Assembly: GCF_964355755.1 (NCBI RefSeq)
Contig: NC_092676.1
Location: 15,456,871-15,520,870, forward strand
Origin: Antedon mediterranea
Taxonomy: Eukaryota; Animalia; Echinodermata
Reading direction: 5' to 3'
Length of the DNA: 64,000 bases
A program made the translations under genes and the position numbers. The notes beneath the pieces were generated by a model that did no database searches, was not told where the DNA came from, and saw only the letters and a program-made list of their open reading frames with translations. The first letter of the stretch is position 1. Every line of letters begins with the position of its first letter. Shown piece after piece: positions 25,453 through 53,600 of this stretch.

Positions 25453-26314
25453 TGAGAATATAAGAATTAAACATTAGTTTTAGTAGCCGTTCGTTACCTT
25501 TGATTTATAAGTTCCAAATTATGATCGTAAGATATCACCTTTTTAGGAAATTGAATTGCCAAATACGACATTGTGCAGCACTAGATAATGCTTTCTACTA
25601 TAACAAGTTGCTGGAACTCATACCTCTAAAACACCATACACGGTGTTCATACTTCTAAACCACCGAGTTTGTATATTCATCATTTAGCAACTTCCCAAAC
25701 AGACGCAAACAAAATCGAATTATTACGCGAGTAACAACATTTCTTATATTTTAAGCCATTTATGTTGTTTAGGCCTATATAAGATATTGTAAACGTAATG
25801 CACTTATTAGGTCTACGAGCACACTTTTAGTTGTGGGTGTGGGGTAGAAAGTGTTCACCATTTATTTTGTCAAAAAAATCCAAAATATATTAGTGTTATT
25901 ATATTCTAAAGAAATGATATAAAAATAACGTTCTTAGATGTCCATAAATTGAACTTCAAAAAGGGAGACTTCATACTTAGTTTAGATATAACAATTTTCT
26001 TAGATGAACATGAGAGATGATGTTTGTGTAGGTCTTATGGCTTCACGGGAAATCACACATTTCCGTTCCAAAGAGATCCTGGTTCTCCGTTCTCAAAGTT
26101 ACAAATGTTACTATTTTTCAACCACTCTTCCCCTCGACATTCTTTGATTTCTAAATATTAATACCCCTGAGAATGGTAATGAAAAAAACAAAACAAATTG
26201 TGTTTATCTTAATTCACTAACATAGTAAAAACTTTGTTTCTAAATTTAAATATGTATTTCGCCATTGTTAATTTCTGGAATGCAGTATCTACGGGTGTGT
26301 ATGTTAGTAGCGGG

Positions 26315-26638
26315 TTAATCTGATTCTACAAGGTGTTCTTCATTTTCGTTGGCTGTAGGTTGCACTGATTCTTCCTTTGTTGTGGGATAGACACCATTCG
26401 GAGTACCTTCCCCATAATTTGAGTTGTGTATAGATGTTCCAAATGTTGTAGTACTGATGTCCGTCATCGCACCGTATCCCTTGAGCGTATCTGTACCATT
26501 CGTGGAAGAGAAGTCGGCAACTTTCGGGTAGTCTGCCCACGGCTGTTTCTCACCAGATGCAAACATACCATAAAATATAACGCCTACAAAATGTATGATG
26601 GCAGCAATTAGAAACACTTTCTCCCATTCCTCGGGTGT
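26315..26638 (-). CDS. VGLUT: VGLUT terminal coding exon
   Basis: [35 protein letters not shown]...EEHLVESD*. Confidence 0.92.
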
Positions 26639-29600
26639 CTGTGAAATTAATAATACCATACCATAGTGACGTGTTACTAGCTTTTAAATCACATAAATTA
26701 ACCTCCTCTATTATTCTTTAACAATCTCTAGAATGCTTTCATTTATTTTGGTTATAAATTTCAACTGATGTATATAAACCGTTGTCATTTGTATTTCAAT
26801 TGTGACAATTAATTTTCATTTTTTAAGCATTAGTCAAGATTATAATGTGAATGTTGTAGATAGAAGACATATAAATTTCCCAGGAGAGTTGAACCTAAAG
26901 GTTGATTGGAAAATAAATTGTAATTAATTTATCTTTTTTCTTGTGGCAATTGCAGTGAATTGCTGTAGTTTTTATATGGATGAAACGAGAAAGGTAGCCC
27001 TGTAGAATAAGCATTAAGTTTCGACAGAAAGAACTTATATGACTATGAATTTGTAATTTGATTCTCTCTGTAAAGATAATAAGCAACTTAGTCTTATATA
27101 TACTGTATTATCCTTATTGCAACATTTTTATCACAAATTTAAGCCTACAGAAATTTACTTTAGATTATTACAGTATAAGACTACCTTTTCTGATGTGATA
27201 TTGGTAGTAATTAGTGGGCAGAGAATACCAGCAAGTGTGCCTGCCGAATTGGTTATTCCCATCAGAATACTGGCGTAGCGTGGTGCAATATCCAGATGAT
27301 TAACATTGAAACCTGTAATAAAACAAATAAAAAACCAGATCATATTGAGTTCCAATCGGCTTGAAAAATGATACACATCCAATATTGTGTATATGACACT
27401 TTATACATTAGTTGAAACCTAGTGAAAGTGCCTTTTACCCCAAGGACAATGTATAATACAGCACAGACTGGGTGTTTCGTAAGATATTAAAGGTATAGTA
27501 TATTTCTGTTGTTTAACTCCGTAAAATTTAGCACTTTTTATTTCATTATAATCATATTAAATTTGTGTGCAAATTATTTACCCGTCAGCTGTTTTCCATT
27601 GAGTATTAATGACGTTTGATGACGCACGTTATCAATATTTAAACAAACACCATTAAAAAATAAAACAGTTGACATACAGCAATTTAATTATGCATTGGAA
27701 AAGATACATTTAGAAATATTTCTGAAGATTAGAAACAAACCAATCGATCAATTTTCTTGCTGGCTTCTAATTATAATACAGTTATGTAAAGCATAATTTA
27801 GGATTGAGCTATTAAAACCGAATGGTTAGGATACTTATTGTCATAGAGAAAGACTCGAGTTTAATTCAATGATTCTTTGATGAAAGTTATGATTTGTACG
27901 TTACATTTTCTTTTTTAAAAAACCTAATTATTACGTTTCATTGTTGTATGTTTCTAGTCTGCAATTTAAGGAAATAAATGTTTATTTTGAATTGAAATTT
28001 TGAATATGAAATTGCCAGGAAGGTAAAGGGTCTGTGGCCTGACAGAAACACTTTACCTGAAGCAGCAAAATAGTACTGTATTCCTACATACACTATTTAA
28101 CTACCGGTACTCTTCTGTCCATTAAATGATGCGGGAAGAGCCTCTGAGAATCGTTGGAAATTTGTTGATGACATATCGGAGTCAATCCTAACCCTGACAT
28201 GCTATACTCAAGCAATCTCAATGTAAACTTTATGAAATCCTAAATACATTACCCCCAATTTACTATAAGTGAAAAACTGATACTGTTTACAATATGTAAT
28301 TGTTAGGTCTTCAGTTACAAGACAACTGTTGGGATATCCAAATTAAAGGTATTATTTCTAGAGCAAGTAGAAGAATGTTTCTTCTTTATGCACTGAAGGG
28401 CTATAATGCACCAATTAGTGACATGTTAAGTTAATTGATCAACTCTATATTCGATCAGTGACTGAGTATGCATGCGTAGTTTGGCACTCTGTCATTACCA
28501 AATATCACATGCAAAATTATGCTCGGCCAGGGCAATGAGAGTTATTATATTGTCCTTTTAAAACACCAGTCTTGCTGAACGTAGAGAAAAATTAATATTA
28601 TTTAGAGAAGCCTGAATCCTCAAGTCAGAGAGAGGCATCGTAATATATAGCCTGCTTAAAGAGCCAATGTATCTAGATTACTTAACCCCAATAGATTTAC
28701 CTAGAATAAGCACTAATTGATAAAACAATTTAGCGATTCCCTATATTATAAAAAGAAACCGGAATGCCACCTATTTAATGTAAAAAATAATCAATTGAGC
28801 AGTGCAGATAACTTAATTTTTATTTATAGTATTATATTTCATTATTCCTATTTCATTAATTTAACATTCTAATTGTATTTTTCGAAGTTGTATTGATATA
28901 TATATATAGTTTATATATTTGTTTATTGTAATGCAAACTTGTTTAGCTGTGTGCTATCGCTTTGTACTTGCATGTGAAACCACCCAAAAAGTGGTCATGT
29001 CGGTCATATAGGAAAGGATCGATGAGGCCTAACTACATTGAGTCTGAAGTGAATAATCAGTTACGTATGATTGTTTTATGTATAAAATAATAGTATGTAG
29101 GCATTAAAATTAGAAACTGTAATTTTGTTATTAAAATCCGGTAAATTTAATAATAATTCTTACCTGAAATTGCAAAGCCACTTGAGCCGACAGCTATTGT
29201 CATACAAATGATAGCCATTTTGGCGCCTCTTGCATATGCGGTGATAAGAAGAAATAATGCCTCACCACCAAAACCTGAATTATAAAATACGTTATCGCTT
29301 TACAAATTCTGAAAGTATTCAGGAAAATTGTAAATTTGATCGGGTGAGATGTGATGCCTTTTTCTTTTGTGTTGAGGTATACAGTAATGTTGGCAATTTT
29401 GTTTTCATTCCTTCTGTCTTTTATTTTACGTATGAAATATAAAAATCTAAAATACTCTGATCAAAATACTCCTTGTCTACTTATATATTTTAATGAATAT
29501 GTTGAATTTATAATAATACTATTAAAAAAAGCTACTTAAGCTATGTCATCTCTTAAGTATAACAATAAATGGTATTTTCAAAGAAATACATTTGACAATA

Positions 29601-32600
29601 AATTTTATCGTGAATAAAGTACCATCCACGAAATCAAGGTTTTACGTATACGGAATTCATAATCAAAAACTTCATCCAATTTGACATGTATAGTCGGCTA
29701 CTTGAAAGACAAACTATACCTTTTAAACTTAATGAAAATATTTTTTAAGTGCTTTATAAAACGTTTATAAACCAGTCATTGTTCCGTTTCTTTTAAAACC
29801 CAATTTATTTTGATAAAAAGATATAAATTCATAATATAATAATGTTATGAATAATTAAAAACATGTACTAAGGATCCACGAAAATGCAAATTTGAGACTG
29901 TTATTACTTTATTTTATATATTATATAATTAGTAATATTATATGTAAGCGAACTATAAATAAAAAAAATGACTAACGCAATTCGAATAGTTAGGAGATAA
30001 TTTTTGTATCAAATGATTTCAAAGGCTTACCACCACAGTTGAACAGTTTGCGCACGGTGGTCGTTGTCATCAATTGTCGACGTCGAAGGAAATCAGCTAG
30101 TTGACCGCCCAGAGGAACAATGATAGCCATTACCAGGTGAGGCAAAGCTGATAACACACCAACCTATTTAATATCAATACCATTGAAAACAATTAATAAT
30201 TATTATTGACAAGTATTCAATTTGCTTGTTCGTTTCCAATAATATATTGTTTTCCTTCGTATACATTTGCATATTGTTAAATATGGGTTTAAAATAAATG
30301 TAGAATCAAGCTTTAATTTAAAAACCAAACACAAGAAAAAAAACGTGTCTAGTATTAAATTCCATTATTCTTGTTTTATGCAAAGCATGTTTTATTGATG
30401 ACTTTGTCTATAATTACCTATCAATCCAATCATTTATTCAGGAGTCAGTAGCAAGCACGTTGTATTATAAAATTAAGAATAGACTTGATCTTTTTTCTCA
30501 TTAAGAATACATCAGTGATAAATAAATACGAATTTTACATTCTTATAATTTAGTAGTCTGTGGTCGTAAATCAATCATTATACATTGGCAGAGACTTACA
30601 GTCTCATTGGGTCAGTCGAGTCAACCTGAAATAGACGCTCGTCTGTTTCATTATTACACTCACATTTTTCCTTTCAATCTTTTATTAATCAATCGATTAC
30701 TGAAGTTTGAAAAAAAGGGTTTGTTGCCCTTTTCGTCAATATATATGGCATTTATCAACCAGCTTATTACAATGAATACGATACTTTAGTTTGCATTCAT
30801 GAATGTGGTATGTGTGCTATAATGTATTAACTAGAAGAGTTCGACACTTTATAAGAAGAAGAACGTATCTACAGTATTTCTATATAAAATCAAGTAGGAC
30901 CTACCTTTGATATTTCGTAATGAAATACTTCCTCCAAATAAGATGGTTGACCAGTAAGAAATAAATAAAAAGTCCAGCTTCTTGCAAAATTTGCTACGAT
31001 TATAGCATAGACAGGCATTGATGTAAAGAAACTTGACCAAGGAGTCGTACTGAACTGTAAATAATAAACATTACATTAATAATAATAATACCAATGATAA
31101 TGCAAGAAGGCATTGTCAGATAGATGATAAATAAAAACATTCCCAATAAATTTCTGATTAGTGGATTTTCTTAGAAGTGTATTAGTGATTCTGATACTGT
31201 TTGCTTCAGCCGGAAGGCTTTCATTTTACATTTTGTCTCAATCAGTTTGTTTTTTCTGCTCAAAATTATAAAAAGTATTTAGAACTAGAAGTTGTAATGA
31301 CTAAACACAGATTGCTTTGTCATCAGTTTCCCATCAGAGTTTTATGAACTTTTAGGAGCCGGTTTACTTAGGCCTAGGATTACCAAACCCGGAGAGATAC
31401 GATACAAAATTTGACATTCCTGACTGTCCTTCAGTGTGCAAGCACAGTACCTTTACTTTTACAGCAGGGGCACTGACATTCAGTGTCAGAATAATATTAA
31501 CCTAAACGTGGAATTATTTTATGAATAAATGACAATTAACATTGTTTTGTTTTATCATATATTATTATTCAAACCCACTATTTACTAAATGTTTACAATT
31601 ACAACCTAATACTCAATTTTGATGCTGTGCCGTCGAAGCAAGTATTTTCTGAAATTTCTGTCATATATAATAATACCTGCTGTAGAAACATATTGTTTCA
31701 GTCTAGAGACAAAACTCTATATATCCTTCAAAAAGTGAAAGCCAAAATCGATGATACTCTCTCAGTCTTGATAATACAGTATCTGATTCTTTATTGTTGA
31801 AAATAGAAATAAAGTTTACGTTGAAATAGAAAATCATCGGAATGTCGTTTAAAGTATCATCGAGCAGTTGATGTGGGAATAACTGTATGACGAACACCAA
31901 ACCGCTATAAATTGTTAACTGGCGTTATCATTCTCGAGAGATGGTTAGCTTTTTATTTATAATCTCCAAGATATCACTTCATATCCATGTCTGTCGTGTC
32001 CTATCATAAAAATACTGATTTGAAGATAGATATGAAATATCTTAATGTACTGAAGACTTCCAAGATTGTTTCAACGTACGTAATGTATACTCAATTCACC
32101 TTGGCATTAAGAATTGATGAACGGGCTATAACAATGTTTGCAAATTGTAAGAAATATATCGCACTTATTCCCTTTAATGCCTTCTTTTCCCCCGGTAACA
32201 CATAACTTTCTTTTCCACATTTTCCACATACTTCCGTCTGAAGTTATATTATATCCGAATACAATAAAGTACATGTTTGAAAAGTATATTGTAGTACTTT
32301 GCCTATACTACCGATTGTATGCCCAACCATGAACATATTACATGCTGGTTTATTATTATTATTGTAGTACTTTGCCTATACTACCGATTGTATGCCTAAC
32401 AACATATTTCATGCTGGTTATTTATTTACTCTTATTTAAAGATGTATTGTCTACCTGAATATGCCTTTTTTTTTTGGCCACTTTGAACAAACATTGAATC
32501 GAAAAAAATGTTTCACTTGAAAAAATGCGTAATTTAAAGTAAAAAAATAGAATAGTAATATTTGTTCATGTTTTGTGGGAGGAAGGCAATACATCTTTAA

Positions 32601-35600
32601 GTACCATAAATTAATTTCCTCTAATCATTCTCACTGTATATACCAGCAGTAGTAGCTTTTATATGTAATTTTTGATTTGTTAGTTATTGAATTATTGCAA
32701 AGTAATTAGATTATGATACAGAAGACTGCCACCTTTCATTTATTTATGTTTAAATAAAGTTAAAACTTATGTGATCGGACCTCCTAATAAAAGTATACTG
32801 TTATCTATATAAAAACACTATATAACTGTAGAATAATAGTTTTTAGCTCGGTTAAAAATATTGTTATCATCACATTTTGAGCAATTTTATGTAAACATTT
32901 TCTTTGGAACAAAAGGCAAATAACATAACTAGACGCTAGCAAGAAATTGATAGAAATGCGTTTTAATGACATTTATGAGTTGTACTAAGAACAATGTGTT
33001 TCTTATTTTGGTCATCATTTCCTATAGGTCTAGATTCATCGGCATTTCAACCAAGTTCATGGATCAGTACCGGTACTGTATATCTCTTTTTTGGAATCAA
33101 CCCGATTTTTGTCTAAAGAATTTAAAAAATAGAAAAAAAAATTAAACAAACCTTTGTACTTGTGGCTCGTTCGCCTATACTCTCCAAGATGTAATTCTTT
33201 TCTTGTAATGTAATAGTTGGGTGAGAGGATGGACTGTCATGGCTAATTACTATAAACACAATGGCCCATGTGATACCCATTACACCTAAATACAATTGAA
33301 ACAAGTTAAGGATTATCTGTGGAGGAGATGAGAGCTATCAGGGAATATACACATTCCTCCTATAATACCATGGTCTATACATCGAAATAACATTCTAAAG
33401 TTTAGAGTTTGCTCATCTAAATCATCACAACTCAAGATTGTGTTCTTTTTGATAGATTAAAACAATTATGCCTAACAGCCGTTTAACTAACAGAATAAAT
33501 TAATGAAGTATCACTGATACAATATAGGCCCAAAAACAAATCAGAATTTGGTATATTTATAAATGAAATGTAGTTTTACAGACTTTTTTTTTTACTACCA
33601 GTGTATTTTTTATCAAAATAATTTCAGTTTTTGTTGAAGTTTTTTTACACCAAATACAATTAGTTTCATTCAAAAGTATTAATGTCATTATTTATCTTGT
33701 TCAATTACACTTTGCATTCCAAAGGTAATTCGTAATTGGTTTTTGTTTAAAAATAACCTTACAACTTGTAAATTATCATTTATCTAAAGTATGAAGTAAG
33801 CCAGCGAACTGTCTGGAATTTAGACTATTTCAAGTATTACAAATATTACTTCCAAGAAAAGTTAGCTTCTTTAACAATTTCATCGATATAATACATCTAC
33901 CTTCATAAACACCATTAGAATGTATCTTAAAGGAATGCAGTATTATTTCTTTTAAAATGTGTAGCATTGTAGATATAATTCATATAAAACGAAGTGCGGT
34001 AAAAATTTTTTGAAATTTATTGTTGTTTAGAGTAAAATCGATTTTGAAGTGTAGATTTTTCAAAAAAACCGCGGATTCTCTATGAGCCGCCATGTTTAAC
34101 ACGAAAACGAGGTTGTGACGTCATTGGTTTGACAGAGAAAATCATCCAACTGTGAGACTGCCCGTAGAGCGTGGATGCCTATATATACACAGAGCTAAAT
34201 TAAGATGAATCACGGATTACAACCTTACCAATTAGAACCCAGAAGAAGAAGAAGAAGAAGAAGAGATGTGGAGGAAATAGAAGGTTTAGATAATATTGTC
34301 GCACATGAAGGAGAAGATATAGAATGGAGGAAAGTAAACAAGGAGGAATGGTGCCAATGCGGACGGTGTGAATTGATGGACACTGCTGTGGAATGCCTTT
34401 GTTGTCGGGAAATTGAAAATGTACGAGCGAAGATGAACATAGGATCAGAAAACGAAATGGCATGCATTTTAGACCATTTTGAATTCGAATTTGTATGTTT
34501 ACATCCTGCAGTAATTAGAACTGCACTTGTTGCCCGGACAGACATTAGGCGAGACAGCATCGTTGACCCGATCCCGAACGAAACATTTCGCCTTCAGGCG
34601 TACAGGCAGTTCACCTACTGGGTGCATGACCGCCTTGGTAAAGCCGTACGACGAGTCATCCCAGCCTGCGTCGTAAACAAAATCAGAAAGGACTTTCCTA
34701 GCATTGATGGAAATTATGTTGGATTTAAAGAAGTCGAATAAATCGAATGGTATCAAGATGTTAATTCATAACATTTAATTATCGAATGCATCAAATAGTA
34801 ACATTTTTTATAGCTAGGCTATGCCTACCTAGTTAGGCTAAATAAAAGCCATTTCCTTGATTATAAATTTTGTAATAGACATTATTAATATACTGTAACA
34901 AGAAAGAAGGGCGATTTATTTTAATTCACTTAACAAGGGTATGTAAATAAAAATTAAAAGCAACAAACAGTAACAAGTGTTTTCTGTTTATTATTTGTAT
35001 GCAAGCATTGTATTAAAAGCTGTTCCAAAACAGGGAAGAATCAAATCCAATCAAAATGTAGTTATTTATCATCTGGCCGGCCAAATATGTGAAATATAAT
35101 TCGCGAATATAATTAGACGTATTTTGCAGAAAGTTACTGAGCGTCATCTTACAGCAATTGCACAACAACACAATAATTATTATAATAAACATTTTTGCAT
35201 CGGTAAAATTAGTTTATTCACTATTTTCAGAGAATTTCCTTCAATGCCTTTTTTTTATTAATTCAACCAAAAACTATACACTAATAATTGCATCAAGAAA
35301 ATATTTAAGAAATTGTATTTATAGTAATATAATATGTAAGGTTTCATCTTTAGCAGTTTAAAAAGATTTTTTTACAAAACAAAATAAGCATAAATTAGCT
35401 TTGTTGGTTTTAATGTAAACACACTATGAAAGCAGAAACCTAGTTCTAAAATCTTCAATCGCATCTTCTTTCTCTGGTTTCTCAGAAGAAGCAATGTTTG
35501 TTGGAAGATCTGGTCTGTCTACATAACGTTGACCTAGAACTATAGCGCTATCTTCACGTCGGTCACACACCATTTCCATCAGTCTCTTTCTAAATTCGAA

Positions 35601-38600
35601 GGTTTTGTCTACATAAATTTTCTTCAATACCCACTGCTTCTTGCGTTTGGGAAATGCCAGTCCAAATCGAAGAGTGCCTGTTAGGAAATGCACATAATTA
35701 TTCCTCATTGTAAATATGTCTTTATAGATTACTAATCAACAAATTAAAGAAGCTTTTATAAAACTACTTACCTTCCTCAGTAGTTGCTTGCTGTCTACCA
35801 ACATTCTCATTGTGGTCCATAATTGCCAATTGATGACGGGCTCTCATGCCTTCATAGCTGAAGTGTTCCCTCTTTGGACAATATTTTAACAACATCCCAT
35901 GAAAAACCTCTAGCGATCCTGTAAGAAGGTTAAGCATTAATTTTATTATAAAAATTGTTATATTATAGTGTTTATTATTGTATGTTAAAGAATGTAGTAT
36001 AGCAGGGCTTCTTTTGCCTTTAATTTATTCGAATGATCCCAGAGCAAAAATAGTACATTTCATATATCTTTTTACATACATACCTGTGTGTTTAAAAAGT
36101 GCCATCTTGTGCATATCTTTTAGTAATTTAGTGTTCATAACAACACCCCGAAGTGCATCATGAGCATCGCTACCTGGTGTCAGCCATTCAATTTCATGCA
36201 TGTCCTCCAATAGTGGGTCGTGACTGCACTTGTGGAATTTATCTGCACTAGCCCATTCATGGAGGTTGCAGACGTGCTGTAGTAAAGAAAGCCACTTGTC
36301 CTTAAGGTCCTAAAAGTGAAATATAGTATAAACTATTAAATGAAAACTATTAACATAAATGAATGTTAACATAATAATCAATAAGAATGTACAACACATA
36401 CTGTACTTCAATACAGTATACACAAACAAATCGTGATAAAAAAACAGCTTTAATATAACTTACAGCATAATCGCCATTGCAGGAAGCACAGCACCACCAC
36501 AGATGATTTTTTATGGACGGTATCCAAAATCTAAGGTCTTCGCAACCTTTCTTCTTCGATTTTTCTCTAAGCTTCTTGGTGACGCTTTTAACAACATGAA
36601 AAATGTCAAACTCATGTTTTAATTCGGGGTAGTTCTTATTCATGTCACTTGCAATTTGGACATGTCTATCTGTAGTCACTCCCACGACATTTACATCTTC
36701 CTCTAGAAGGTAGTCAATTGCCCTTGTGAAACCGACTCGCTCCATATTTGTTGAAGCTTGGCCTGGCGCTTCCGATACTTGGACAAGCTCAAAATGAATA
36801 ATGAGCTCACTATTCTCCTCCATCAGAGAATATCCCAAATACTTAGCACTATGGCCAGGCGTGTCACTGCGCCCATCCCCACCAACGAAAATATCTTGGT
36901 AGCGAAATGCATCTATCCATATACCATGGTTTTCATTGTACAGATCATTTATTACAGGGAAAAGGTAAGACCTCTGAATATTGTAAAAATGTTTTTCTGA
37001 AAGCATGTGTAGTTTCATAGTGGTTGCAATGTCAAACATTTTTTGGTATGTGCCACCTGAAAACAAAATCGATGCCGCTAACTCAAGGTTTCCCTTTGCC
37101 ATGTTTCGCACAAGTGGTTGTGATTTCCACCTTCCTCTGTGATTGTTGTGGCATGTCCATTCAAATACAATCATTGTTCCCCGGTACAGTTTATGTATTT
37201 CTAATAGACTACCACACTCTTGGCATGTATTAAAAAGATGGTCCAATGACGACTCATAGACGAGGAAGACTCCATCACTCTTCTTTCTTTCAGCCGTATT
37301 AGTTTCAGAGTCACTATCAGAGCTGCTCGGTGAATATGAGCTATCAGAATCAACATCTGAAAAAGGCATGTTAGATAGAAAAAAATTATTTGATATTTTC
37401 AAGTACAAAAACCTCATCTTTTTTTTTAAAAACCATTCAAATCTTAGCTTTCTTGGTCATAAACAAATAAATGTATTGTAAATGTGCCCATAGTTTTGAG
37501 TTGCAGAACAAATAGTAAACATAAAAAGAATAAATAGTACCTTCATCACTGTCATTATCAGAATTATCTACTTCTGAATCTTCTTCTTCTGGAACTTGTG
37601 GTATGTTTTGTGGGATGCTGGCTGTACTTGAGGCCGATGGACATTTGCGAGTTTTGGCTACAGACTTGGGCTTTTTTTTAAACAGCTTCACATAACTATG
37701 ATCATGCTGGATCTTTAGTGGATCTGCGAAAGTGTCTGTCTGGAATGTACAATTGTAATATTTTGATAAAAAATAGCATTTATATGTAACAATCATTGCA
37801 TTCCATTATTTATTAAGAGCCTTATTTGTATACACTTACTTGTGTTGATGAGTTGACCTTAGTTACTTGTCCACATTTACACCCTTCCGAAAACAAAATC
37901 TCTGGCTGAATTACTTCTACCGAATCTCTTGGTATTGATGTTTCATCTAATTCCACTTGGCCCATATCCAAAACTTTCTGAAAATGAATGCATAAGTTAA
38001 CCATAATCTGCATGTTAGACTTGATGAAGACATGAACAAAATACTCGATGTTACAAAAGCCAAGTGTAGCACCTGATGATCCAAGAGTAATTTTTATCAC
38101 CTTAACTCAACTTCATTCATGAAACAGTAAAATGTTGAAATTTATTTTATATCTACATATTTTCATTTCGTTTTGTGGGAAGATGTTATTTTTTAACATA
38201 ACTAATTAACACCACTAGGCCTAGCTTTAAAATTAAGGGCAATCAACTCAGAATACACAAGCCGTCTAGGCCTACTCCTACTACGGCAGTGCTGGCTAAA
38301 GCAGCTAGCCGCCTAGTTTAGTTAGAGGAGAAGAAAGAGAAGGGCCTCTCGCCTATCTATAGGCCTAACTAGAGCCTGTTTATAGTTTAATAAATACACA
38401 GTATTTTAATTATAATTATCAACAGAGCCGCGCATTATTATTTATATTTTGCTGTAGATTTTCGTAGCTTACCTTTTTAGGCCATCGCTTTTGTTCCATC
38501 AATTTTTGACGATCTTGTCTTCTTTTCGATGCTTCGCTGGCAGGTTTGATATGAGCAAGCTGTGTTGGTACAGCGTCCGGCTTTAATCGCCTTGTTGGTT

Positions 38601-41600
38601 TTCGACCGAGTGACACTTTCACAGAATTGTCTTCAAACATATCTTTCTCAAAATGTTCACTACACACTCGAGAATGTACATTTACATGAGGATTCTCTAA
38701 CTTCAAAGATGCCACCCACTTACGAAGTAAATCTTTATTGTGCAAAGGCAATCGATGAAAGCTGACGTTAACTTTGTTGGTAGATTTCCTGTCTTTCCTA
38801 CTTGATGCATTACTGCAACCGAAAGCCATACAAAATACCATAATTTTTGCTGGACGTACACGGTTACTACCGTTTAAATTAATAAATAAAAAATCAGCAT
38901 ACACTATAAAACGCAAAACTTTGAAGAAACGGGAAAAAAGCGAGAAATTACGGTGAAAATTAGCTGGACAAATACAGTCAACTGACACTACAGTGATATT
39001 CGCACGTGTACAAAGTATACGAAGATCCCGGATGAAGGGACTTCCGCCCCACCACCGATCGTAGCTTCCTGGTTTTTTTCCAAGATGGCGGAGCACCATT
39101 ACCGTGGAACAAAAATAACTAAAAAATCGGATTTTTGCTATTGGTTTCAACTTTTTAATTTATCCTTTGTTTATTTTTATATACATTTTACTATATACAC
39201 TAGTTTAAAAGAAATAATACTGGATTCCTTTAAACGATATATTCAATCCTAATATGGATTGTGGCAAATTGATTAAGAACATCCTTGGTTTAAAAAAATG
39301 AACGATGCATTTGCAAAGGTTGTTGATCTAGTAAACGTGTTGATTCTTATAGCAATGCATTTAGCCAAAATCTATTTTTTATATTATTAGTATTATTTTA
39401 GATAGCATTTTCAAATGATTAATTCCAAATTATTATCACGTATATATATATTCATATATTTGGCTATAGATGTTCAATTTAAATAAGGCACTCAGTTTTT
39501 AAAAAGAAAATTTATTCCCGGGAGAGAGACACTGTTCATTTAGGAGGAGTATTTTTTTTTATCGAGTTTAATCATTATAGAACTTAGTCAAATTGATCTA
39601 TATATTATTTTCACTATGATGTTTCTCAATATATTTTACTTGCAAAGATCAAAAGACAATAAATGACATAGGCTTATAACTGTTTATAGGACATTAACTT
39701 TCTGTTTATCTGAAAACGCAAATATAATATGTTTCAAGAAAAATTTATTTTATTCAATGTTCCAGAAGTATAAAATGGTGATGATGTTGCTTAATTGGAA
39801 ATATTTGGATTGTGAGGTAATAATTATACATCTGAATTACGTACCAAAGAAATAGAAAGGGCTTGGCCATCCTGCGTATTCTACAAGTACGCCCGCTAAC
39901 GGCATACCAACGACTGCCCCAGCGTAAGATCCTGTAATAAAACAAAAATCACAATTAATTATTAATTTTTTTTAATTCATCAGAATACTGCAGTGTGTTG
40001 TCTAATTTATAGCGTGTTTTAATAGATAATTTATTAAAAGCCGATGTTTAATATAAGGAACATTGATCTGAATACCAAACCGGTAATTGTTTAAATTCCA
40101 AAAATGCCCTTACGTAAATTTATATATAGATAAAATCGTATTAAAAAACACAATCACGTAAACACAAAATACAAATTGAAGTTTGAGTCAGTTGCAGTGC
40201 AGTTGCAGTGCAGTTGCAGTGCAGTTGCAGTGCAGTTGCAGTGCAGTTGCAGTGCAGTTGCAGTGCAGTTGCAGTGCAGTTGCAGTGCAGTTGCAGTGCA
40301 GTTGCAGTGCAGTTGCAGTGCAGTTGCAGTGCAGTTGCAGTGCAGTTGCAGTGCAGTTGCAGTGCAGTTGCAGTGCAGTTGCAGTGCAGTTGCAGTGCAG
40401 TTGCAGTGCAGTTGCAGTGCAGTTGCAGTGCAGTTGCAGTGCAGTTGCAGTGCAGTTGCAGTGCAGTTGCAGTGCAGTTGCAGTGCAGTTGCAGTGCAGT
40501 TGCAGTGCAGTTGCAGTGCAGTTGCAGTGCAGTTGCAGTGCAGTTGCAGTGCAGTTGCAGTGCAGTTGCAGTGCAGTTGCAGTGCAGTTGCAGTGCAGTT
40601 GCAGCTCGGCGTCATGTGCAGTGCTGTGGGTCCACTGAAGTACATAATAAAAAGTCTCAATTTGAATCGGTCAGGAGAACCCTTTTAGTAAAAGGGATTT
40701 CGAGAATTAATATACTGTTAATATATACGATATCTGAAAGGAAATGACTAAAAGAAATATGATTTAAAAAAAACCTTAAAAATCTTAAAGGAAATTTTCT
40801 CAGAAGAAAATATTTCTTATTGTCTAAAATAAAACACAAACAATACGTCGTGTAATAACTGAATTTGTAACTCTGATCCGTCTCGAATCAGTCAGTGAAA
40901 TAATGCGTTTTTCCCGCTGCTGCTCTAGCCCGCTACGTCACACGAGATGACTCATTCATTAGATGAAATCAAGCAGCAGTATAGTACTACACTTTGACAT
41001 TTTTGTTAAAATGGAAACTCGACTATAATTTATAGGTACCACCTGTTGAATCCAAAAAACGGCTGGGAAAAGAGTCTAATGACAAATCCCAAAGCATTTC
41101 TGGTATTTATGAGTCCCATGATATTACTATAATTCACTGTCAGATAATCATTGAATTATTATCAAAACAGTCCATTGAAGTTTTTGTTTGTAATAGGATA
41201 CTTGAAGTATCTAGGCTTGATGAAGTGACCCCGAGACTTGACCTTAGCAATAACAATAAGCAAGCAGCGTTTTTTGTAAGAAATATTCTTGTTAATAATA
41301 AGTTTTTTACGAATTCTTAAACTTCCGGAACTTGTTTACAGAAAAAAAAAAACAGCCAACGACCTATCAGAGCCATTTTTTGCATTGCAATATTACATAA
41401 AATAACTATATACAATAGTACCGTGAAATTACATTACAGTTACTTATGTTAAATTCCGGCATTGATAGGCCTAACTAAATCGTGATTTTAAATGAAAGTG
41501 ATTTATCGTTTTAGATTACACGTTTCTATTTCTCACCTGATTTGTACATTACACATTTTTATCGTCGGCGTTCTTTACATGCCTGTGGCTTGAATGAATT

Positions 41601-47600: not shown

Positions 47601-50600
47601 TATCATTAGTCAAGCTTGATGTAACATGGCTATGTAACCCGTGGTAACATAGCGCGCGCATTCACCGGCTGTCAGATTGGCTACTTAGATTACCTATTTC
47701 AAAATTCGATGATGTTAGGCCTACATGCTAAGCAAGTATGGTAATACTTATTCACAATACTTAAAAACGTGATGCAAAGTTAAGATCTTATAAGATATTG
47801 ACTTTGTTCTTTGAATTTCTTTGAATCCCATTAAAAGAGCAGACAAGCAGACTTGAAGCGATTCACGTTATGTTAATTTCATCTTAAGTTTGCAGGTCTA
47901 TACATCAGACGAAATATTAAAAAACAAGTTTGGTTAAAGAAGATTGTCAAGAGAAATATTTAATATATATTGTACTTGTCGCAATTAGTAGAATAATATC
48001 ACCGCATTGATGGTCATAATGTGTAGTTTATTGGTCTTGTTTAAATATGGCTTGCTACTGCAGCCTGCCTGTAATGATCAATTTAACGACACGCTTTATA
48101 TGTAATCTTGACAATCACGGTAACTATAACCATCAAGATTGCCCCTAGGGGTTATTGTGTCTATTTAATTCACTATGCAAATAGATAATGAAGCTGTTAC
48201 GAGGCATTTAAAGAATCATTCTTTCAAATCTATCATTCTCTAAGTGACTAAATGTTTTAAGATTAGTGCATGTGCGCCGTCTATTTGCATACCCCAGGTT
48301 GTTTTGCAAGTATTAATATCACTGACATTTATGGAATATAAAAGATTATTAATTTAAAATAAATAAATAATATTCCATTAAATTTAAAATTTCTATCATT
48401 AGGTTCGTGCAGATTAACAATTATTGGGGTTTTTAAATGCAGCAATTATAATACAGTACTTGCTGATTTATTATAAAAAAATATTATGAAAGTTATAAAT
48501 TTTAGTATAACATAAATTTAAAAGATAATTGTATGAATCTTTGTTGTATAACACAACAATAAATACATTAATTTCTATCACATTGTAATAATAATTCAAA
48601 AGATGAAACATTAATCTTATCAACTGGACTTGTTTGTTGAAATAGTTGATAAGATTTAACTGTTCATTTTATGTTCTACCTGGATGAATGATAACATTCA
48701 TAACTAATAATTTAAAGGGAACGATTAATTAAGATGAAGTCGGTAAAGGACGACCTGTATCATCCAACAGCTTAACAGTCAAATACTAACGTAACACAAA
48801 TCGACCAGTAACGCAATCTATTAACCACTAACGTAACACAAATTAACCAGTAACGCAATCTATTAACCACTAACGTAACACAAATCTACCAGTAACGCAA
48901 TCTATAAACCACTAACGTAACACAAATCAACCAGTAACGCAATCTATTAACCACTAACGTAACACAAATCAACCAGTAACGTAATCTATTAACCACTAAC
49001 GTAACACAAATTAACCAGTAACGCAATCTATTAACCACTAACGTAACACAAATCAACCAGTAACGCAATCTATTAACCACTAACGTAACATAAATCAACC
49101 AGTAACGCAATCTATTAACCACTAACGTAACATAAATCTACCAGTAACGCAATCTATAAACCACTAATGTAACATAAATCAACCAGTAACGCAATCTATT
49201 AACCACTAACGTAACACAAATCAACCAGTAACGTAATCTATTAACCACTAACGTAACACAAATCGACCAGTAACGCAATCTATTAACCACTAACGTAACA
49301 CAAATTAACCAGTAACGCAATCTATTAACCACTAACGTAACACAAATCTACCAGTAACGCAATCTATAAACCACTAACGTAACACAAATCAACCAGTAAC
49401 GCAATCTATTAACCACTAACGTAACACAAATCAACCAGTAACGTAATCTATTAACCACTAACGTAACACAAATTAACCAGTAACGCAATCTATTAACCAC
49501 TAACGTAACACAAATCAACCAGTAACGCAATCTATTAACCACTAACGTAACATAAATCAACCAGTAACGCAATCTATTAACCACTAACGTAACATAAATC
49601 TACCAGTAACGCAATCTATAAACCACTAATGTAACATAAATCAACCAGTAACGCAATCTATTAACCACTAACGTAACACAAATCAACCAGTAACGTAATC
49701 TATTAACCACTAACGTAACACAAATCAACCAGTAACGCAATCTATTAACCACTAACGTAACACAAATCGACCAGTAACGCAATCTATTAACCACTAACGT
49801 AACAAAAATCAACCAGTAACGCAATCTTAATAACCACTAACGTAATACAAATCAACCATTAACGCAATCTATTAACCACTAACGTAACACAAATCTACCA
49901 GTAACGCAATCTATTAACCACTAACGTAAATCAATCAGTAACGCTATCTATTAACCACTAACGTAACACAAATCAACCAGTAACGTAATCTATTAACCAC
50001 TAAAGCTTGGTTCCCACTAGAACGTAACGCAAGGACGTAAACGCAACGCAAGCGTTTTAACCAATGACAAGCGAAGTTATAGACAGTTAGCAATCACAAG
50101 CGAATAAGCCATCGCTTGTGATTGGTCAATTCACTTGCGTTGCGTTACGTCCTTGCGTTGCGTCGCTAGTGGGAACCACGCTTAACGTAACACAAATCAA
50201 CCAGTAAAGCAATCTATTAACCACTAACGTAAATCAACCAGTAACGCAATATATTGACCACTAACGTAAATCAACCAGTAACGCAATCTATTAACCAGTA
50301 ACGTAACACAAATCAACCAATAACGCAATCTATTAACCACTAACGTAACATAAATCAACCAGTAACGCAATCTATTGACCACTAACGTAAATCAACCAGT
50401 AACGTAATCTATTAACCACTACCGTAAGACAAATCAACCAGTAACGCAATATATTAACCACTAACATAACACAAATCGTGTTACGTCCTTGTGTTGCGTC
50501 GCTAGTGGGAACCACGCTTAATGTAACATTAACCACTAACGTAACACAAATCACCCACTAATGTAACATTAACCACTAACGTAACACAAATCACCCACTA

Positions 50601-53600
50601 ATGTAACATTAACCACTAACGTAACACAAATCACCCACTAATGTAACATTAACCACTAACGTAACACAAATCACCCACTAATGTAACATTAACCACTAAC
50701 GTAACACAAATCACCCACTAATGTAACATTAACCACTAACGTAACACAAACCAACCAGTAACGCAATCTATTTACCACTCAAGCTTGGTTCCCACTAGAA
50801 TGTAACGCAAGGACGTAGACGCAACGCAAGCGAGTTAAAAATCACACACGGCTGTTCGAATAATCCATCGCTTGAAGCGTGGTTCCCACTAGCGACGCAA
50901 CACAAGGACGTAACGCAACGCAAGTGAATTGACCAATCACAAGCGATGGCTTATTCGCTTGTGATTGCTATACTGTCTATAACTTCGCTTGTCATTGGTT
51001 AAAACGCTTGCATTGCGTTTACGTCCTTGCGTTACGTTCTAGTGGGAACCAAGCTTGAGATTGGTCAGATCACTTTGCGTTGCGTTACGTCCTTGCTTTG
51101 CGATCTAGTGGGAACCAAGCTTTACGTAACACAAATCAACCAGTAACGTAATCTATTAACCACTAACGTAACACAAATCAACCAGTAAAGCAATCTATTA
51201 ACCACTAACGTAACACAAATCAACCAGTAACGCAATCTATTAACCACTAACGTAACAAAAATCATTTTCTATCGCAATCTATTCCCCACTAATGTAACAA
51301 AAAATCATCCACTAACGTAGGTCTAATCTATTAAACCCACTAAACGTAACACACTTTATTAAGCGGGGTTCCCACTAGCGACGCAACGCAAGGACGTAAC
51401 GCAACGCAAGTGAATTGACCAATCACAAGCGATGGCTTATTCGCTTGTGATTGCTAACTGTCTATAACTTCGCTTGTCATTGGTTAAAACGCTTGCGTTG
51501 CGTTTACGTCCTTGCGTTACGTTCTAGTGGGAACCAAGCTTTATAACCACTAACGTAACAAAAAAACACACTACTAAAGACATTCTAAACTTCATGTTTA
51601 TTTTCAGTTTGAAGTTTATGAATTTAAAGCTTTTTTTTTCTATCGGGTTTTGTTTAACAAAAATACATTCTGTGTTATTCTTTCAGTGCAATCATTGGCT
51701 CTGGATAAATTCGATGTAATGCAACCATAATCTCTTATGTATGTGTTGGGATATATCAACCACGTACACTTAACAATGCATTGTTGTTTCCTTGGAAATC
51801 TCATTCCCAATGTGTGTAGTTTTGAAAATATTTTTGTTGAAATTATTTATTAACATTTATTTATTTTTATCCGCATGAATGTATATTCTTTGGCATGTTA
51901 AAATAACTTGTAATAAAATGTGTTATGAACACAATATAAAACTCAATATCTGTCTGTTATAATATCTCCGCATAATGTCTTTGACTATTTTGTATTTCAA
52001 CATCAACATAACAGGTGTAGTAATAAAGGTGTATGCATGACTTGCTAGTGAACAAGTTCTACTATAGCCCCTTGTATATGCATAATTAGTAATCAATATT
52101 TAAATAAACAAAGGTCCTAGTCTAGTTTCTTGTACACATTTTCTCTTTACCTCTTATAGCACATCAATTTTACAAATTAAACAATATTGTTGGGAGCTGT
52201 CGTGTATACATTTATTGAGATTGCAATAGAAGTAAGTTTAAATACGCGAAGATTGTCAATATTATCATAAATTTGCTCTATCAATCATGTGTAAAGATTT
52301 GAGATCAATTGATATACATATATATATACATTCGTTTAGCAGATATTTTCTAAAATTAATTTTCCGCCATGTTTTGCCGCACCTCCCATGACATTCTATT
52401 ACAACTGGTACAACAACGTGCAACAACATCCTTCCACGATTCTACCATTATTATATATGTTACTGCAGAGTGCATGTATTTATTTTATATTACTTTAGTT
52501 CCTATTATTCTACAAGTTTCTGCCCTATGAATATTCATTTATTCTGTTACTTTCTTATTTGCATTCTTATTTACATATTATTTGCCAAGTGTGCACAGTG
52601 TGCTGTTTCTCCTTTGTTTGCCTTGTCCTGATTTTCTTTTGTTCTGCTCAGTTGTTGTTTGCCTGTGCAAGGGTACAGGTCTGTGCAAGTGCATAAGCAG
52701 CCATTATTTTTTTTTTACCAGCTCTAGCTCTACAGTTTATTATTTACACTTTATTACTATTGGATATTTCTGGGATTTTACTTTGCAAATGTTGAGATTA
52801 TTGTGGATGGTGCATATTAAAGGAAGTACTTTAAACATTAATTTTACTCTTTTGATTTCTGTATGTTGTGAGAGCTGCGTACATTAAAACAAGGAATCAA
52901 CAGCAGCTGACCTAATTGGTAGATCCAATTAAATTATAACTTATATACGAGCAACCACAACATTATCAAGTACTACTCTCCACCTTAAATATACTATAGG
53001 CCTATTCCACCACCAGAAAGTACAAAATTATCACTTGTAAGCGCCACCACTACGAACTACCGCGACCTTAATATTAATAATCTCTACAACCATAATTATA
53101 TAATACTCATAATGGCTACTTTATCATTATAATCACATTAGACGTATTCGTCTGATCACTCGCATCGCAAACACCTCGTAGTTACTCCCAATGATCGCAT
53201 GAGGAGGCTGATCAGAGCTAGCTCAAAACAGCCCAGCCAAATACCTACCCACTATTGCCAACTGGAAGTTATTCAAGTTATTTAGAACATTTTTAGTTAA
53301 ACTGGAAACTTTATTTATGAGTAAAAAGTTGTGATTTCGTGTCTTTGTCATCCGCAGTTGATGTTTTGAGAATGTTAAGGCAAAAAACTCACAAGATCAT
53401 AGCAAGGAACAATGACACGTGACTTACCTCCACCAATCCCTGTAAGATTCGTATGAAAATAACGAGTGAATAGTGGACATTACACGCAAACGGAATACAC
53501 ATATTAAGAATGGATGTACTGAAGATAGCAATGCAAAACACTCTACAAAGAAAAAAAGAACACCATATTGTTAGTGAACCATAACTATTTCAACTGGTCA

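What the first reader, a model, noticed from the sequence alone, without database searches (positions are those of the whole stretch)
33931..39229. Apparently intact two-gene Kolobok transposon pairing a THAP-DDE transposase with a stand-alone P2X7-ballast-like protein
Seen: TTAA duplications, 26-bp TIRs with one mismatch, a 741-aa transposase that splices into an uninterrupted frame across 6 GT-AG introns, and a convergent intact 178-aa ORF. Known: Kolobok elements use TTAA TSDs and encode a THAP-DDE transposase plus a second protein, KolX, of unclear function. Inference: this copy is young and possibly autonomous, making it a complete two-component mobile system suitable for reconstitution. 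The superfamily is described; this family and the role of its accessory protein may not be.
Basis: partly seen in the sequence, partly recalled or inferred. Interest (0 to 1): 0.85.

Follow-up and report, generated by a model that had tools for sequence, protein, structure and literature searches.

The report
Live two-gene Kolobok transposon in crinoid
This is an intact two-gene jumping gene of a known kind (Kolobok, Kol0 lineage) in an intron of a feather-star glutamate-transporter gene, with nearly identical sister copies and an empty version of the same site, so it likely still moves and would be a ready system for testing what its small second protein, a relative of the human P2X7 receptor tail, does.

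Summary
The element is 5,299 bp (33931-39229) between TTAA duplications, with 26-bp TIRs (one mismatch). It carries a 7-exon, 741-aa THAP-DDE transposase (minus strand) and a convergent 178-aa KolX gene. My spliced protein equals RefSeq XP_071954979.1 of Antedon mediterranea at 741 of 741 residues. Catalytic D396/D465/E612, DxxH and the H2CH finger are intact and colinear with Kolobok-1_XT, so it is a Kol0 Kolobok. The KolX/P2X7-ballast link is already published (PMC9587614).

Youth is supported. Five annotated loci encode proteins differing by at most two residues. A contig joins the two flanks across a single TTAA, an exact empty site. A differently labelled organism B holds the family at about 2% divergence, with its own flanks and a 1.4-kb deletion derivative; horizontal transfer is possible but unproven.

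KolX-like genes face a transposase in 30 of 30 informative metagenome loci. Transposition, splicing and KolX function were not shown. Verdict: a new, likely active family of a known kind, useful as a test system.

The parts
33927..33930 (.). TTAA target-site duplication, left
   Evidence: Sequence. The empty site keeps one TTAA: joint 33926->39230 skips 5303 = 5299 + 4.
33931..33956 (+). Left TIR, 26 bp, begins AG (5'-RR)
34087..34096 (+). CCGCCATnTT motif (YY1-like; label recalled), inward-facing, 157 bp inside the left end; likely part of the KolX promoter
   Evidence: 3 matches in the window, 0.30 expected; 2 of the 3 are at the element's ends. GCCATnTT lies 147-209 bp inside both ends of 4 metagenome elements of 2 clusters.
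34116..34123 (.). TGACGTCA (CRE-like; label recalled) next to a CCAAT-like site; TATA-like site at about 34180
   Evidence: function inferred
34205..34741 (+). KolX gene, intronless, 178 aa, P2X7 cytoplasmic-ballast fold; Cys 50, 52, 55, 66, 67, 87, 155; R129 and R161
   Evidence: Pfam P2RX7_C E 2e-18; phmmer to P2X7 chains E 1.5e-5; model pLDDT 89; the top 14 Foldseek hits are all P2X7; conservation in 134 homologues
35424..35677 (-). Transposase exon 7 (aa 658-741 and stop TAG 35426-35424)
35772..35918 (-). Transposase exon 6 (aa 609-658), catalytic E612
   Evidence: E in 39 of 42 rows, 2 gaps
36084..36309 (-). Transposase exon 5 (aa 534-609), H545/H550/C561/H563 finger; private L549
36464..37356 (-). 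Transposase exon 4 (aa 236-533): C280/C283/C304/H308 cluster, RNase H core D396 and D465, DxxH D486-H489
   Evidence: (D396 42 of 42, D465 42 of 42)
37541..37739 (-). Transposase exon 3 (aa 170-236), predicted disordered linker
   Evidence: pLDDT < 50
37840..37977 (-). Transposase exon 2 (aa 124-169); M128 starts the annotated 614-aa THAP-less isoform
38473..38841 (-). Transposase exon 1 (aa 1-123), THAP domain (C4, C9, C60, H63; P32, W42, F64; AVPTQL box)
39041..39091 (-). Inward-facing YY1-like (39091-39082), GC-box and ETS-like motifs (labels recalled); likely transposase promoter; CpG o/e 1.45
   Evidence: function inferred
39204..39229 (-). Right TIR, 26 bp, ends CT (YY-3')
39230..39233 (.). 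TTAA target-site duplication, right
33286..39844 (-). Host intron of a VGLUT (SLC17A6-8)-like gene that holds the whole element
   Evidence: Spliced contig of run X7 joins 33283->39843 with CT..AC ends; exon ends read; VGLUT3 match E 5.2e-15 for an upstream exon

Best explanation
This is an intact, multi-copy Kol0-lineage Kolobok DNA transposon inserted at a TTAA in an intron of a crinoid VGLUT-like gene; it is likely still mobile by cut-and-paste, with its small KolX protein likely acting in trans as an accessory factor for transposition. SHOWN: ends, TSD, two intact convergent genes, conserved catalytic residues, near-identical sister loci, an exact empty site, and a deletion derivative in organism B that keeps only about 665 bp of the left end and 751 bp of the right end. 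INFERRED: (1) two inward-facing promoters just inside the ends drive the two genes; (2) the THAP domain binds the ends; (3) the RNase H core (D396/D465/E612, DxxH, H2CH finger) cuts the element out and joins it into a new TTAA, as in its fold relatives of the IS256/MULE, P and hAT groups; (4) aborted gap repair at a 4-bp microhomology made the 1.4-kb non-autonomous derivative, which the full element moves; (5) KolX is a zinc-stabilised ballast-fold protein whose conserved arginine patch binds a phosphate-bearing ligand (guanine nucleotide or nucleic acid) and helps or times transposition. My odds: Kol0 membership 0.97, recent movement 0.9, this copy autonomous 0.75, KolX a trans-acting helper or regulator of transposition 0.6, guanine nucleotide as its ligand 0.25.
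For: Ends and genes. Independent gene model identical at 741 of 741. Five loci by accession number, on at least four contigs, encode proteins with 0-2 differences from the window protein. Empty site: a 1,294-nt contig of run X1 runs from the left flank through one TTAA into the right flank, and a 2,995-nt contig matches the element body with 1 difference. Triad and DxxH are kept in 39-42 of 42 homologues and are colinear with Kolobok_1_XT1p in the supplement of PMC9587614 (compared by eye). Foldseek best hits are ISCth4 (E 2.7e-6), P-element and Hermes transposases. Organism B contigs reach the TIR from other flanks and begin at 33923-33927, i.e. include the TTAA; joint 34595->38479 has 4 letters of microhomology. 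Of the listed exon-4 differences to B, 8 of 9 are synonymous against 0.20 expected (only 40 of 229 table rows were shown). KolX linkage: 30 of 30 metagenome loci with at least 1.5 kb downstream have a convergent transposase; they fall into 14 clusters; of all 67 loci, 43 have a transposase hit and the 24 without one all have under 1.5 kb downstream. KolX keeps all 7 cysteines (126-131 of 134) and R129/R161 (132 and 127 of 134), the counterparts of rat P2X7 R546/R578.
Against: No excision or insertion was observed; run X1 may be the window's own source, so the empty site is not an independent population sample. The one RNA-like contig that crosses a transposase intron (run X7, 36286-36610, intron 4) is unspliced; it has 25 differences and 18 gap letters in 325 nt, so it comes from a diverged copy. 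RefSeq models are predictions; I did not see their read support. Three of the five rat GDP-contact residues (H547, R574, K583) are not kept in KolX (L130, V157, S166). Pfam calls the core only weakly (MULE E 0.029), and Foldseek TM-scores are low (0.25 by query length). Many Kolobok lineages carry no KolX (PMC9587614 section 10), so KolX is not universally needed. Three loci of 2 clusters have the genes back to back rather than convergent (L002-L004).
Confidence: 0.8

Rival explanations
1. The element is a live Kol0 transposon, but KolX does not touch the transposition machinery. It would shield the element from host silencing (an anti-silencing or chromatin factor), and is kept because silenced copies do not spread.
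For: Tight linkage (30 of 30 loci) needs only a benefit to the element. The transposase already has its own DNA-binding THAP domain. Both end regions are CpG-rich (o/e 1.43-1.45), which makes them plausible silencing targets. Zebrafish nanor, a KolX relative, was proposed to act in transcription regulation (PMC7016195 section 14). One annotated fish protein fuses THAP to a ballast domain (P0161).
Against: There is no chromatin-reader or enzyme domain in KolX. The basic run R13-R21 is not kept in close homologues. There are no expression data.
Confidence: 0.25
2. The family burst recently but is now silent or dying. The intact frames would only reflect its young age, and this copy would be a passenger rather than a source of transposase.
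For: No spliced transposase contig was seen. Three annotated loci already carry A603T plus E612Q, which removes the third catalytic residue. THAP-less 614-aa isoforms are annotated at four loci. This copy has one private change, L549 against I in sister copies.
Against: An unfixed insertion (exact empty site) and 0-2 amino-acid differences among five loci point to very recent movement. Position 549 is variable among homologues (I 18, K 15, V 5, L 2, Q 1 of 42).
Confidence: 0.15
3. The locus is a domesticated host gene pair, like the domesticated Xenopus Kolobok transposases or nanor, fixed in place and serving the animal.
For: Kolobok transposases were domesticated many times in Xenopus (PMC6004289 passages). 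Six introns and intact frames would fit a host gene.
Against: Intact TIRs and TSD, an exact empty site, near-identical copies on several contigs and different flanks in organism B.
Confidence: 0.02
4. The filled allele is an assembly error: a repeat placed at a TTAA where the animal has none.
For: Among the rows shown, no contig bridges either filled junction, and the empty-site contig runs on unbroken into the right flank.
Against: The left-flank contig stops exactly at 33931 in two runs, where filled and empty paths part. The copy carries a private base (36264) that the same-sample contigs do not show. Contigs drop junctions next to high-depth repeats. The family is real at other loci either way.
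Confidence: 0.05

Closest known systems
Kolobok superfamily, Kol0 (Kolobok0) lineage, type Kolobok-1_XT (Kojima and Bao 2022, PMC9587614; Xenopus XKol-Tpases, PMC6004289)
   Same: TTAA TSD, RR...YY ends, AGGRR terminus as in T2-MITEs, THAP + DDE + DxxH + H2CH transposase, second gene KolX with ballast fold and 7 cysteines; core motifs colinear with Kolobok_1_XT1p.
   Different: A new family in a crinoid: 'Antedon', 'Anneissia' and 'crinoid' have 0 hits in the paper's four supplements; Repbase and Dfam could not be searched. Six introns. Nearest named relatives are far off: Glandiceps 64%, Anneissia 62% over exon 4; Anneissia KolX 68%.
P2X7 cytoplasmic ballast (PDB 6U9V, 8TR5; Pfam PF20478) and nanor/ZCD proteins (PMC7016195)
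   Same: Same fold (Foldseek E 8e-5, TM 0.55, rmsd 3.3), same seven cysteines, R546 and R578 counterparts kept.
   Different: Stand-alone, no channel or membrane anchor; H547, R574 and K583 counterparts not kept; an N-terminal PYxxEP motif (P7, Y/F8, E11, P12 in 81-116 of 134 homologues) lies outside the part aligned to P2X7.
Maize MuDR (mudrA + mudrB) - recalled, from no call
   Same: A MULE-related DDE transposase and a small accessory gene transcribed convergently from promoters at the two ends; the accessory gene is recalled to be needed for new insertions. This is the closest working analogy.
   Different: MuDR has long TIRs, 9-bp unspecific TSDs and no THAP domain; MURB has no known relation to KolX. 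Not a member.
Drosophila P element transposase (PDB 6P5A, 6PE2)
   Same: N-terminal THAP, DxxH-type RNase H core (Foldseek E 7e-5), spliced gene, truncated isoforms; its use of GTP as cofactor is recalled.
   Different: 8-bp TSD and one gene (recalled). P carries its GTP-binding domain inside the transposase; here the D465-E612 span is only 147 aa and any nucleotide-binding module would be the separate KolX (untested).
piggyBac
   Same: TTAA target and TSD; a few families carry a KolX-like gene (PMC9587614).
   Different: piggyBac ends are not RR...YY, the catalytic triad is DDD (recalled), and its KolX-like proteins lack most of the seven cysteines.

Membership tests
Kolobok superfamily | 4-bp TTAA target-site duplication | tested here: met
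   TTAA on both sides; the empty site has one TTAA.
Kolobok superfamily | TIRs with 5'-RR and YY-3' termini | tested here: met
   AG...CT, 26 bp, one mismatch.
Kolobok superfamily | [quoted passage not shown] | tested here: met
   D396 42 of 42, D465 42 of 42, D486 40 of 42, H489 41 of 42, E612 39 of 42; RNase H-type fold hits.
Kolobok superfamily | THAP domain (C2CH, P/W/F, AVPTIF box) | tested here: met
   Pfam E 2.3e-16; C4, C9, C60, H63, P32, W42, F64, AVPTQL; definition from PMC6004289.
Kolobok superfamily | H2CH zinc finger between DxxH and the catalytic E | tested here: met
   H545, H550, C561, H563 kept in 40-42 of 42.
Kol0 (Kolobok0) lineage | Second gene KolX with ballast fold and seven cysteines | tested here: met
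Kol0 (Kolobok0) lineage | Transposase core groups with Kolobok-1_XT in a tree of Repbase families | tested here: inconclusive
   No reference family was in my tree (one search holds only database homologues). By eye the core is colinear with Kolobok_1_XT1p: [14 protein letters not shown] / GDGQFDSPGHSAKY, TDRH / TDRH, FDIFH / FDVWH, NHLWWC / [15 protein letters not shown] / HTGDLENFH.
KolobokP / KolobokE / KolobokD / KolobokH | Long terminal direct repeats, or His-Me, lambda-exonuclease, DEDDh or RecQ accessory gene; CCHC finger after the first D | tested here: not met
   No long direct repeats at the ends; no such Pfam domain; no cysteine between D396 and D465.
piggyBac | Termini other than RR...YY and a piggyBac-type catalytic domain | tested here: not met
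   Ends AG...CT; no piggyBac family in Pfam or among Foldseek hits listed.
Autonomous active transposon | Near-identical dispersed copies and insertion polymorphism | tested here: met
   Five loci with 0-2 amino-acid differences; exact empty site.
Autonomous active transposon | Spliced transcript across all six junctions | tested here: inconclusive
   RefSeq model identical; no spliced transposase joint in the runs laid.
Autonomous active transposon | Excision and integration catalysed by the encoded protein | not testable with these tools
   Needs a cell or in vitro assay.
P2X7-type guanine-nucleotide-binding ballast | GDP-contact residues R546, H547, R574, R578, K583 (rat; from PMC7016195) | tested here: inconclusive
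   2 of 5 kept (R129, R161); L130, V157 and S166 at the others. Binding itself is untested.

The most novel reading that the evidence does not exclude
A currently jumping Kol0 family that has recently crossed between a feather star and another, unrelated organism (organism B holds it at 1.5-2.3% divergence, introns included, at its own TTAA sites, in two samples), and whose KolX is a separate GTP/GDP-binding subunit that does for this transposase what the built-in GTP domain does for the P element. That would be the ancestral job of the P2X7 ballast. My odds: horizontal transfer alone about 0.4 (B's identity is coded and its distance from the host is not established), nucleotide-dependent KolX alone about 0.25, both about 0.12. 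My paper searches listed no report of Kolobok horizontal transfer in echinoderms and no Kolobok transposition assay; subscription journals are mostly missing.
Probability: 0.12. Interest if true: 0.78.

Novelty: new member of a known kind. Interest (0 to 1): 0.45.

Why it matters
Kolobok is a widespread superfamily for which my searches found no transposition assay, and KolX has no known function although it is the published probable source of the P2X7 receptor's ballast domain. A family with intact genes, an exact empty site and a natural 1.4-kb mini-element gives both the enzyme and the donor for a direct test with and without KolX. The result would settle what the second gene does and hint at what the P2X7 tail did before it was captured. 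It could also give a second TTAA-targeting vector besides piggyBac. The value is as a test system: other recently active Kolobok families are already described in Xenopus (PMC6004289).

Tried and rejected
No whole genome was held, so copies and their flanks in the host could not be counted by BLASTN; I used annotated proteins and contigs.

No RNA holder listed. Run X7 holds spliced host VGLUT (5 joints with CT..AC ends) but shows no spliced transposase joint; most junctions are not covered, so this blank is not counted.

Depth: element-body contigs in X1 are 3.8-5.1 times as deep as flank contigs, and the ends in X5 8-10 times as deep as the interior. The tool states that depth is no copy number, so I give these only as description.

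Horizontal-transfer test (host stretch 26200-34000 at 80% likeness): X2 and X7 (organism A) and X12 (organism C; 26200-27897 with 64 differences and 52 gap letters) cover the VGLUT gene, while the listed pieces of X5 (organism B) on the host part are only 37-45 nt long. A filter can drop records, so this hole is not counted as evidence.

Complex prediction KolX with transposase 262-741: no verdict (score 0.39, one control 0.41; alignments not used).

No KolX match in phages; no Rfam match in the window. The search for related loci could not use the 134-row alignment; the 8-row one was used. No near-identical DNA in the 67 metagenome loci (best 74% over 99 nt). No protein of 65-99% identity from another species in two exon-4 searches. 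An alternative acceptor at 38073 breaks the frame (exon of 233 nt against 138, whose first run also had a 2-base start error, corrected). The tree (42 rows, none dropped) puts the crinoid protein with a hemichordate (100/99) and not with the sea-urchin row, but that row is a long branch and paralogues abound, so I draw no transfer claim from it. McCarthy et al. 2019 was not held; its residues are cited through PMC7016195. Rejected: piggyBac, KolobokP/E/D/H, domesticated gene (see membership rows).


Full report
Observation. The element runs from 33931 to 39229 (5,299 bp). TTAA lies directly outside both ends, and the ends form 26-bp inverted repeats with one mismatch, starting AG and ending CT. 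The end pattern occurs only at these two places in the window and in none of 100 shuffles. Seven minus-strand exons joined at six GT-AG introns give 741 aa without an internal stop; the introns are AT-richer than the exons. A convergent, intronless ORF at 34205-34741 gives 178 aa. Pfam finds THAP in exon 1 and P2RX7_C in the small ORF.

Host and context. The exon-4 search returned a 741-aa RefSeq protein of the feather star Antedon mediterranea, XP_071954979.1, identical to my spliced model at 741 of 741 positions. It shares the window's private L549, so it probably is this locus: an independent gene model, not an independent copy. The element lies in an intron of a minus-strand VGLUT-like gene (E 5.2e-15; further exons). 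A contig of run X7 joins 33283 to 39843 with CT..AC ends, so that 6,559-bp intron is spliced in that sample; whether that animal carries the insertion is unknown. The transposase reads in the host gene's direction and KolX against it.

Transposase. Among 42 homologues, D396 and D465 are invariant, E612 is kept in 39, D486 in 40 and H489 in 41, and H545/H550/C561/H563 in 40-42. PMC9587614 (seen: abstract, sections 3, 9, 10, passages of sections 12 and 16, supplement searches) defines Kolobok by TTAA TSDs, RR/YY ends and C/DxxH, and the Kol0 lineage by KolX. PMC6004289 (passages) adds THAP and H2CH. The Kolobok_1_XT1p core in the supplement is colinear with ours motif by motif (by eye; no reference tree was built). 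The second, CCHC finger of KolobokP/E/D is absent. The model is confident over the core (pLDDT mostly above 90 from 270 to 700) and disordered at 118-260. Its best structural matches are ISCth4, P-element and Hermes transposases, with low TM-scores.

Youth. The 90% cluster of the transposase has 10 members, all A. mediterranea. By accession they form five loci, on at least four contigs, with 741-, 627- or 614-aa products that differ from the window protein by 0-2 residues, and three further loci with short products that share A603T and E612Q. In run X1 a 1,294-nt contig starts in the left flank and continues through one TTAA into the right flank, skipping 5,303 nt, which is the element plus one TTAA. 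That fixes the boundaries, confirms the TSD and shows the site is not fixed. A 2,995-nt contig matches the body with one difference. X1 may be the window's own source, so this is one animal. No listed contig bridges a filled junction, so I leave 0.05 for an assembly error.

A second organism. Runs X5 and X6 (organism B, two samples, one study) hold nearly the whole element, introns included, at 1.5-2.3% substitutions. Their contigs reach the left TIR from other flanks and include the TTAA; one is 9.8 kb long. One joint, 34595 to 38479, has 4 letters of microhomology and would leave a 1.4-kb element with both ends but neither gene whole. Of the listed exon-4 differences 8 of 9 are synonymous (0.20 expected), while 5 of 7 in exon 1 change the protein, as expected if those come from the derivative (40 of 229 rows were shown, so this is a partial count). 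B may be a close relative that inherited the family, or a distant organism that received it. My test of B's distance gave a blank that is not counted (see Tried and rejected). I put transfer at about 0.4.

KolX. The protein matches P2X7 chains by sequence (E 1.5e-5) and fold (top 14 Foldseek hits; model pLDDT 89). The family is large: 4,845 representatives at E up to 0.001. In 134 homologues of 140-260 aa (20 of 154 dropped by length) the seven cysteines are kept in 126-131, R129 in 132 and R161 in 127. These two arginines match rat P2X7 R546 and R578; the counterparts of H547, R574 and K583 are not kept, as PMC7016195 (passages and section 14) reports for invertebrate proteins. Of 67 metagenome loci with a KolX-like gene, 40 have a convergent transposase, 3 a back-to-back one and 24 none; all 24 have under 1.5 kb downstream, and all 30 with more (14 clusters) have the convergent gene. 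So KolX travels with the transposase across distant families. The derivative in B suggests that neither gene is needed in cis. That KolX is a ballast-fold protein and the likely source of the P2X7 tail is published; its job is not.

Ends. A CCGCCATnTT motif faces inward 157 and 139 bp inside the two ends (3 matches in the window, 0.30 expected), with CRE-, CCAAT- and TATA-like sites on the left and GC- and ETS-like sites on the right, and CpG o/e near 1.4 (labels recalled). Four complete metagenome elements of two clusters have GCCATnTT at 147-209 bp in both ends; two other paired-end hits (L002, L012/L013) do not. Earlier scan notes pointed me to this (e1-9395325, e1-9076013); they are leads, not support.

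Mechanism. Shown: anatomy, catalytic residues, sister copies, empty site, derivative, gene linkage. Inferred: inward promoters drive both genes; THAP binds the ends; the DDE core cuts and pastes into TTAA; gap repair makes mini-elements; KolX acts in trans. I commit to KolX as an accessory factor of transposition (0.6), by analogy with maize MuDR's second gene (recalled), with anti-silencing as main rival (0.25). A guanine-nucleotide role, by analogy with the P element's GTP cofactor (recalled), is the bold version (0.25).

Novelty. A new member of a known kind. 'Antedon', 'Anneissia' and 'crinoid' have no hits in the four supplements of PMC9587614; Repbase and Dfam were not available. Searches for Kolobok with excision/assay, heterologous/human cells, horizontal transfer/echinoderm, and crinoid/transposon (listings only, plus two passages of bioRxiv 2021.09.26.461848) showed no Kolobok transposition assay and no transfer report; subscription papers are mostly missing, so this is weak. 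Recently active Kolobok families are already described in Xenopus. Interest 0.45.

Noticed in passing
Proteins P0131 (XP_063959511.1, Lytechinus pictus) and P0181 (XP_068105448.1, Hyperolius riggenbachi): Two annotated membrane proteins end in a ballast/KolX domain: an Ig V-set + C2 protein in a sea urchin and an MHC class I-like protein in a frog (four isoforms). They may be further independent captures of KolX as a receptor tail, like P2X7, or annotation fusions. One paper search listed nothing on it.
   Followed up: partly
Protein P0161 (XP_057682231.1, pipefish Corythoichthys intestinalis): Annotated THAP + ballast fusion of 381 aa; single record, may be a gene-model artefact.
   Followed up: partly
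P0053, P0054/P0057, P0058 (three A. mediterranea loci): Short transposase products share A603T and E612Q: a catalytically dead subfamily that spread to three contigs, possibly moved in trans or acting as repressor.
   Followed up: partly
window 37966 (M128) onward; P0051, P0055: A 614-aa isoform without the THAP domain is annotated at four loci; it could be a natural inhibitor or a catalytic-only subunit.
   Followed up: no
window 34595 / 38479 (runs X5, X6): Organism B has an internal-deletion derivative of about 1.4 kb joined at a 4-bp microhomology, and a 398-nt replacement in intron 1 of its longer copy.
   Followed up: partly
window 34031-38991 (run X7): RNA-like contigs of another organism A sample come from diverged copies that share many alleles with organism B rather than with the window copy; unexplained.
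   Followed up: no
L002:795-4510, L003, L004: KolX-like and transposase genes arranged back to back; in L002 they lie inside an inverted repeat of about 100 bp flanked by TTAA.
   Followed up: no
L041:871-4610; L043:1-6323: Relatives with long inverted ends (148 bp; 55 bp cut by the contig end) that include the GCCAT and TGACGT-type motifs.
   Followed up: partly
window 26318-58145 (minus): Vesicular glutamate transporter-like gene with at least ten exons; five junctions are spliced in run X7.
   Followed up: partly
window 10077-11215 (+): Fragment of a non-LTR retrotransposon: endonuclease (Exo_endo_phos E 2e-5) abutting a C-terminal ORF2-like piece; the middle seems deleted.
   Followed up: no
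window 12072-13199, 20978-22367, 40189-40604, 48785-51317: Tandem arrays: 26-bp x 43, 20/23-bp GC-richer array, 11-bp x 38 (very deep in X1), and a 42-bp x 40 array with strong strand skew.
   Followed up: no
window 7175-7594 (minus): A 139-aa open stretch that looks like a decayed transposon C-terminal piece; no Pfam match.
   Followed up: no
window 34241-34263: An (AGA)n microsatellite in KolX encodes nine arginines, a possible nuclear signal not kept in the closest homologues.
   Followed up: no
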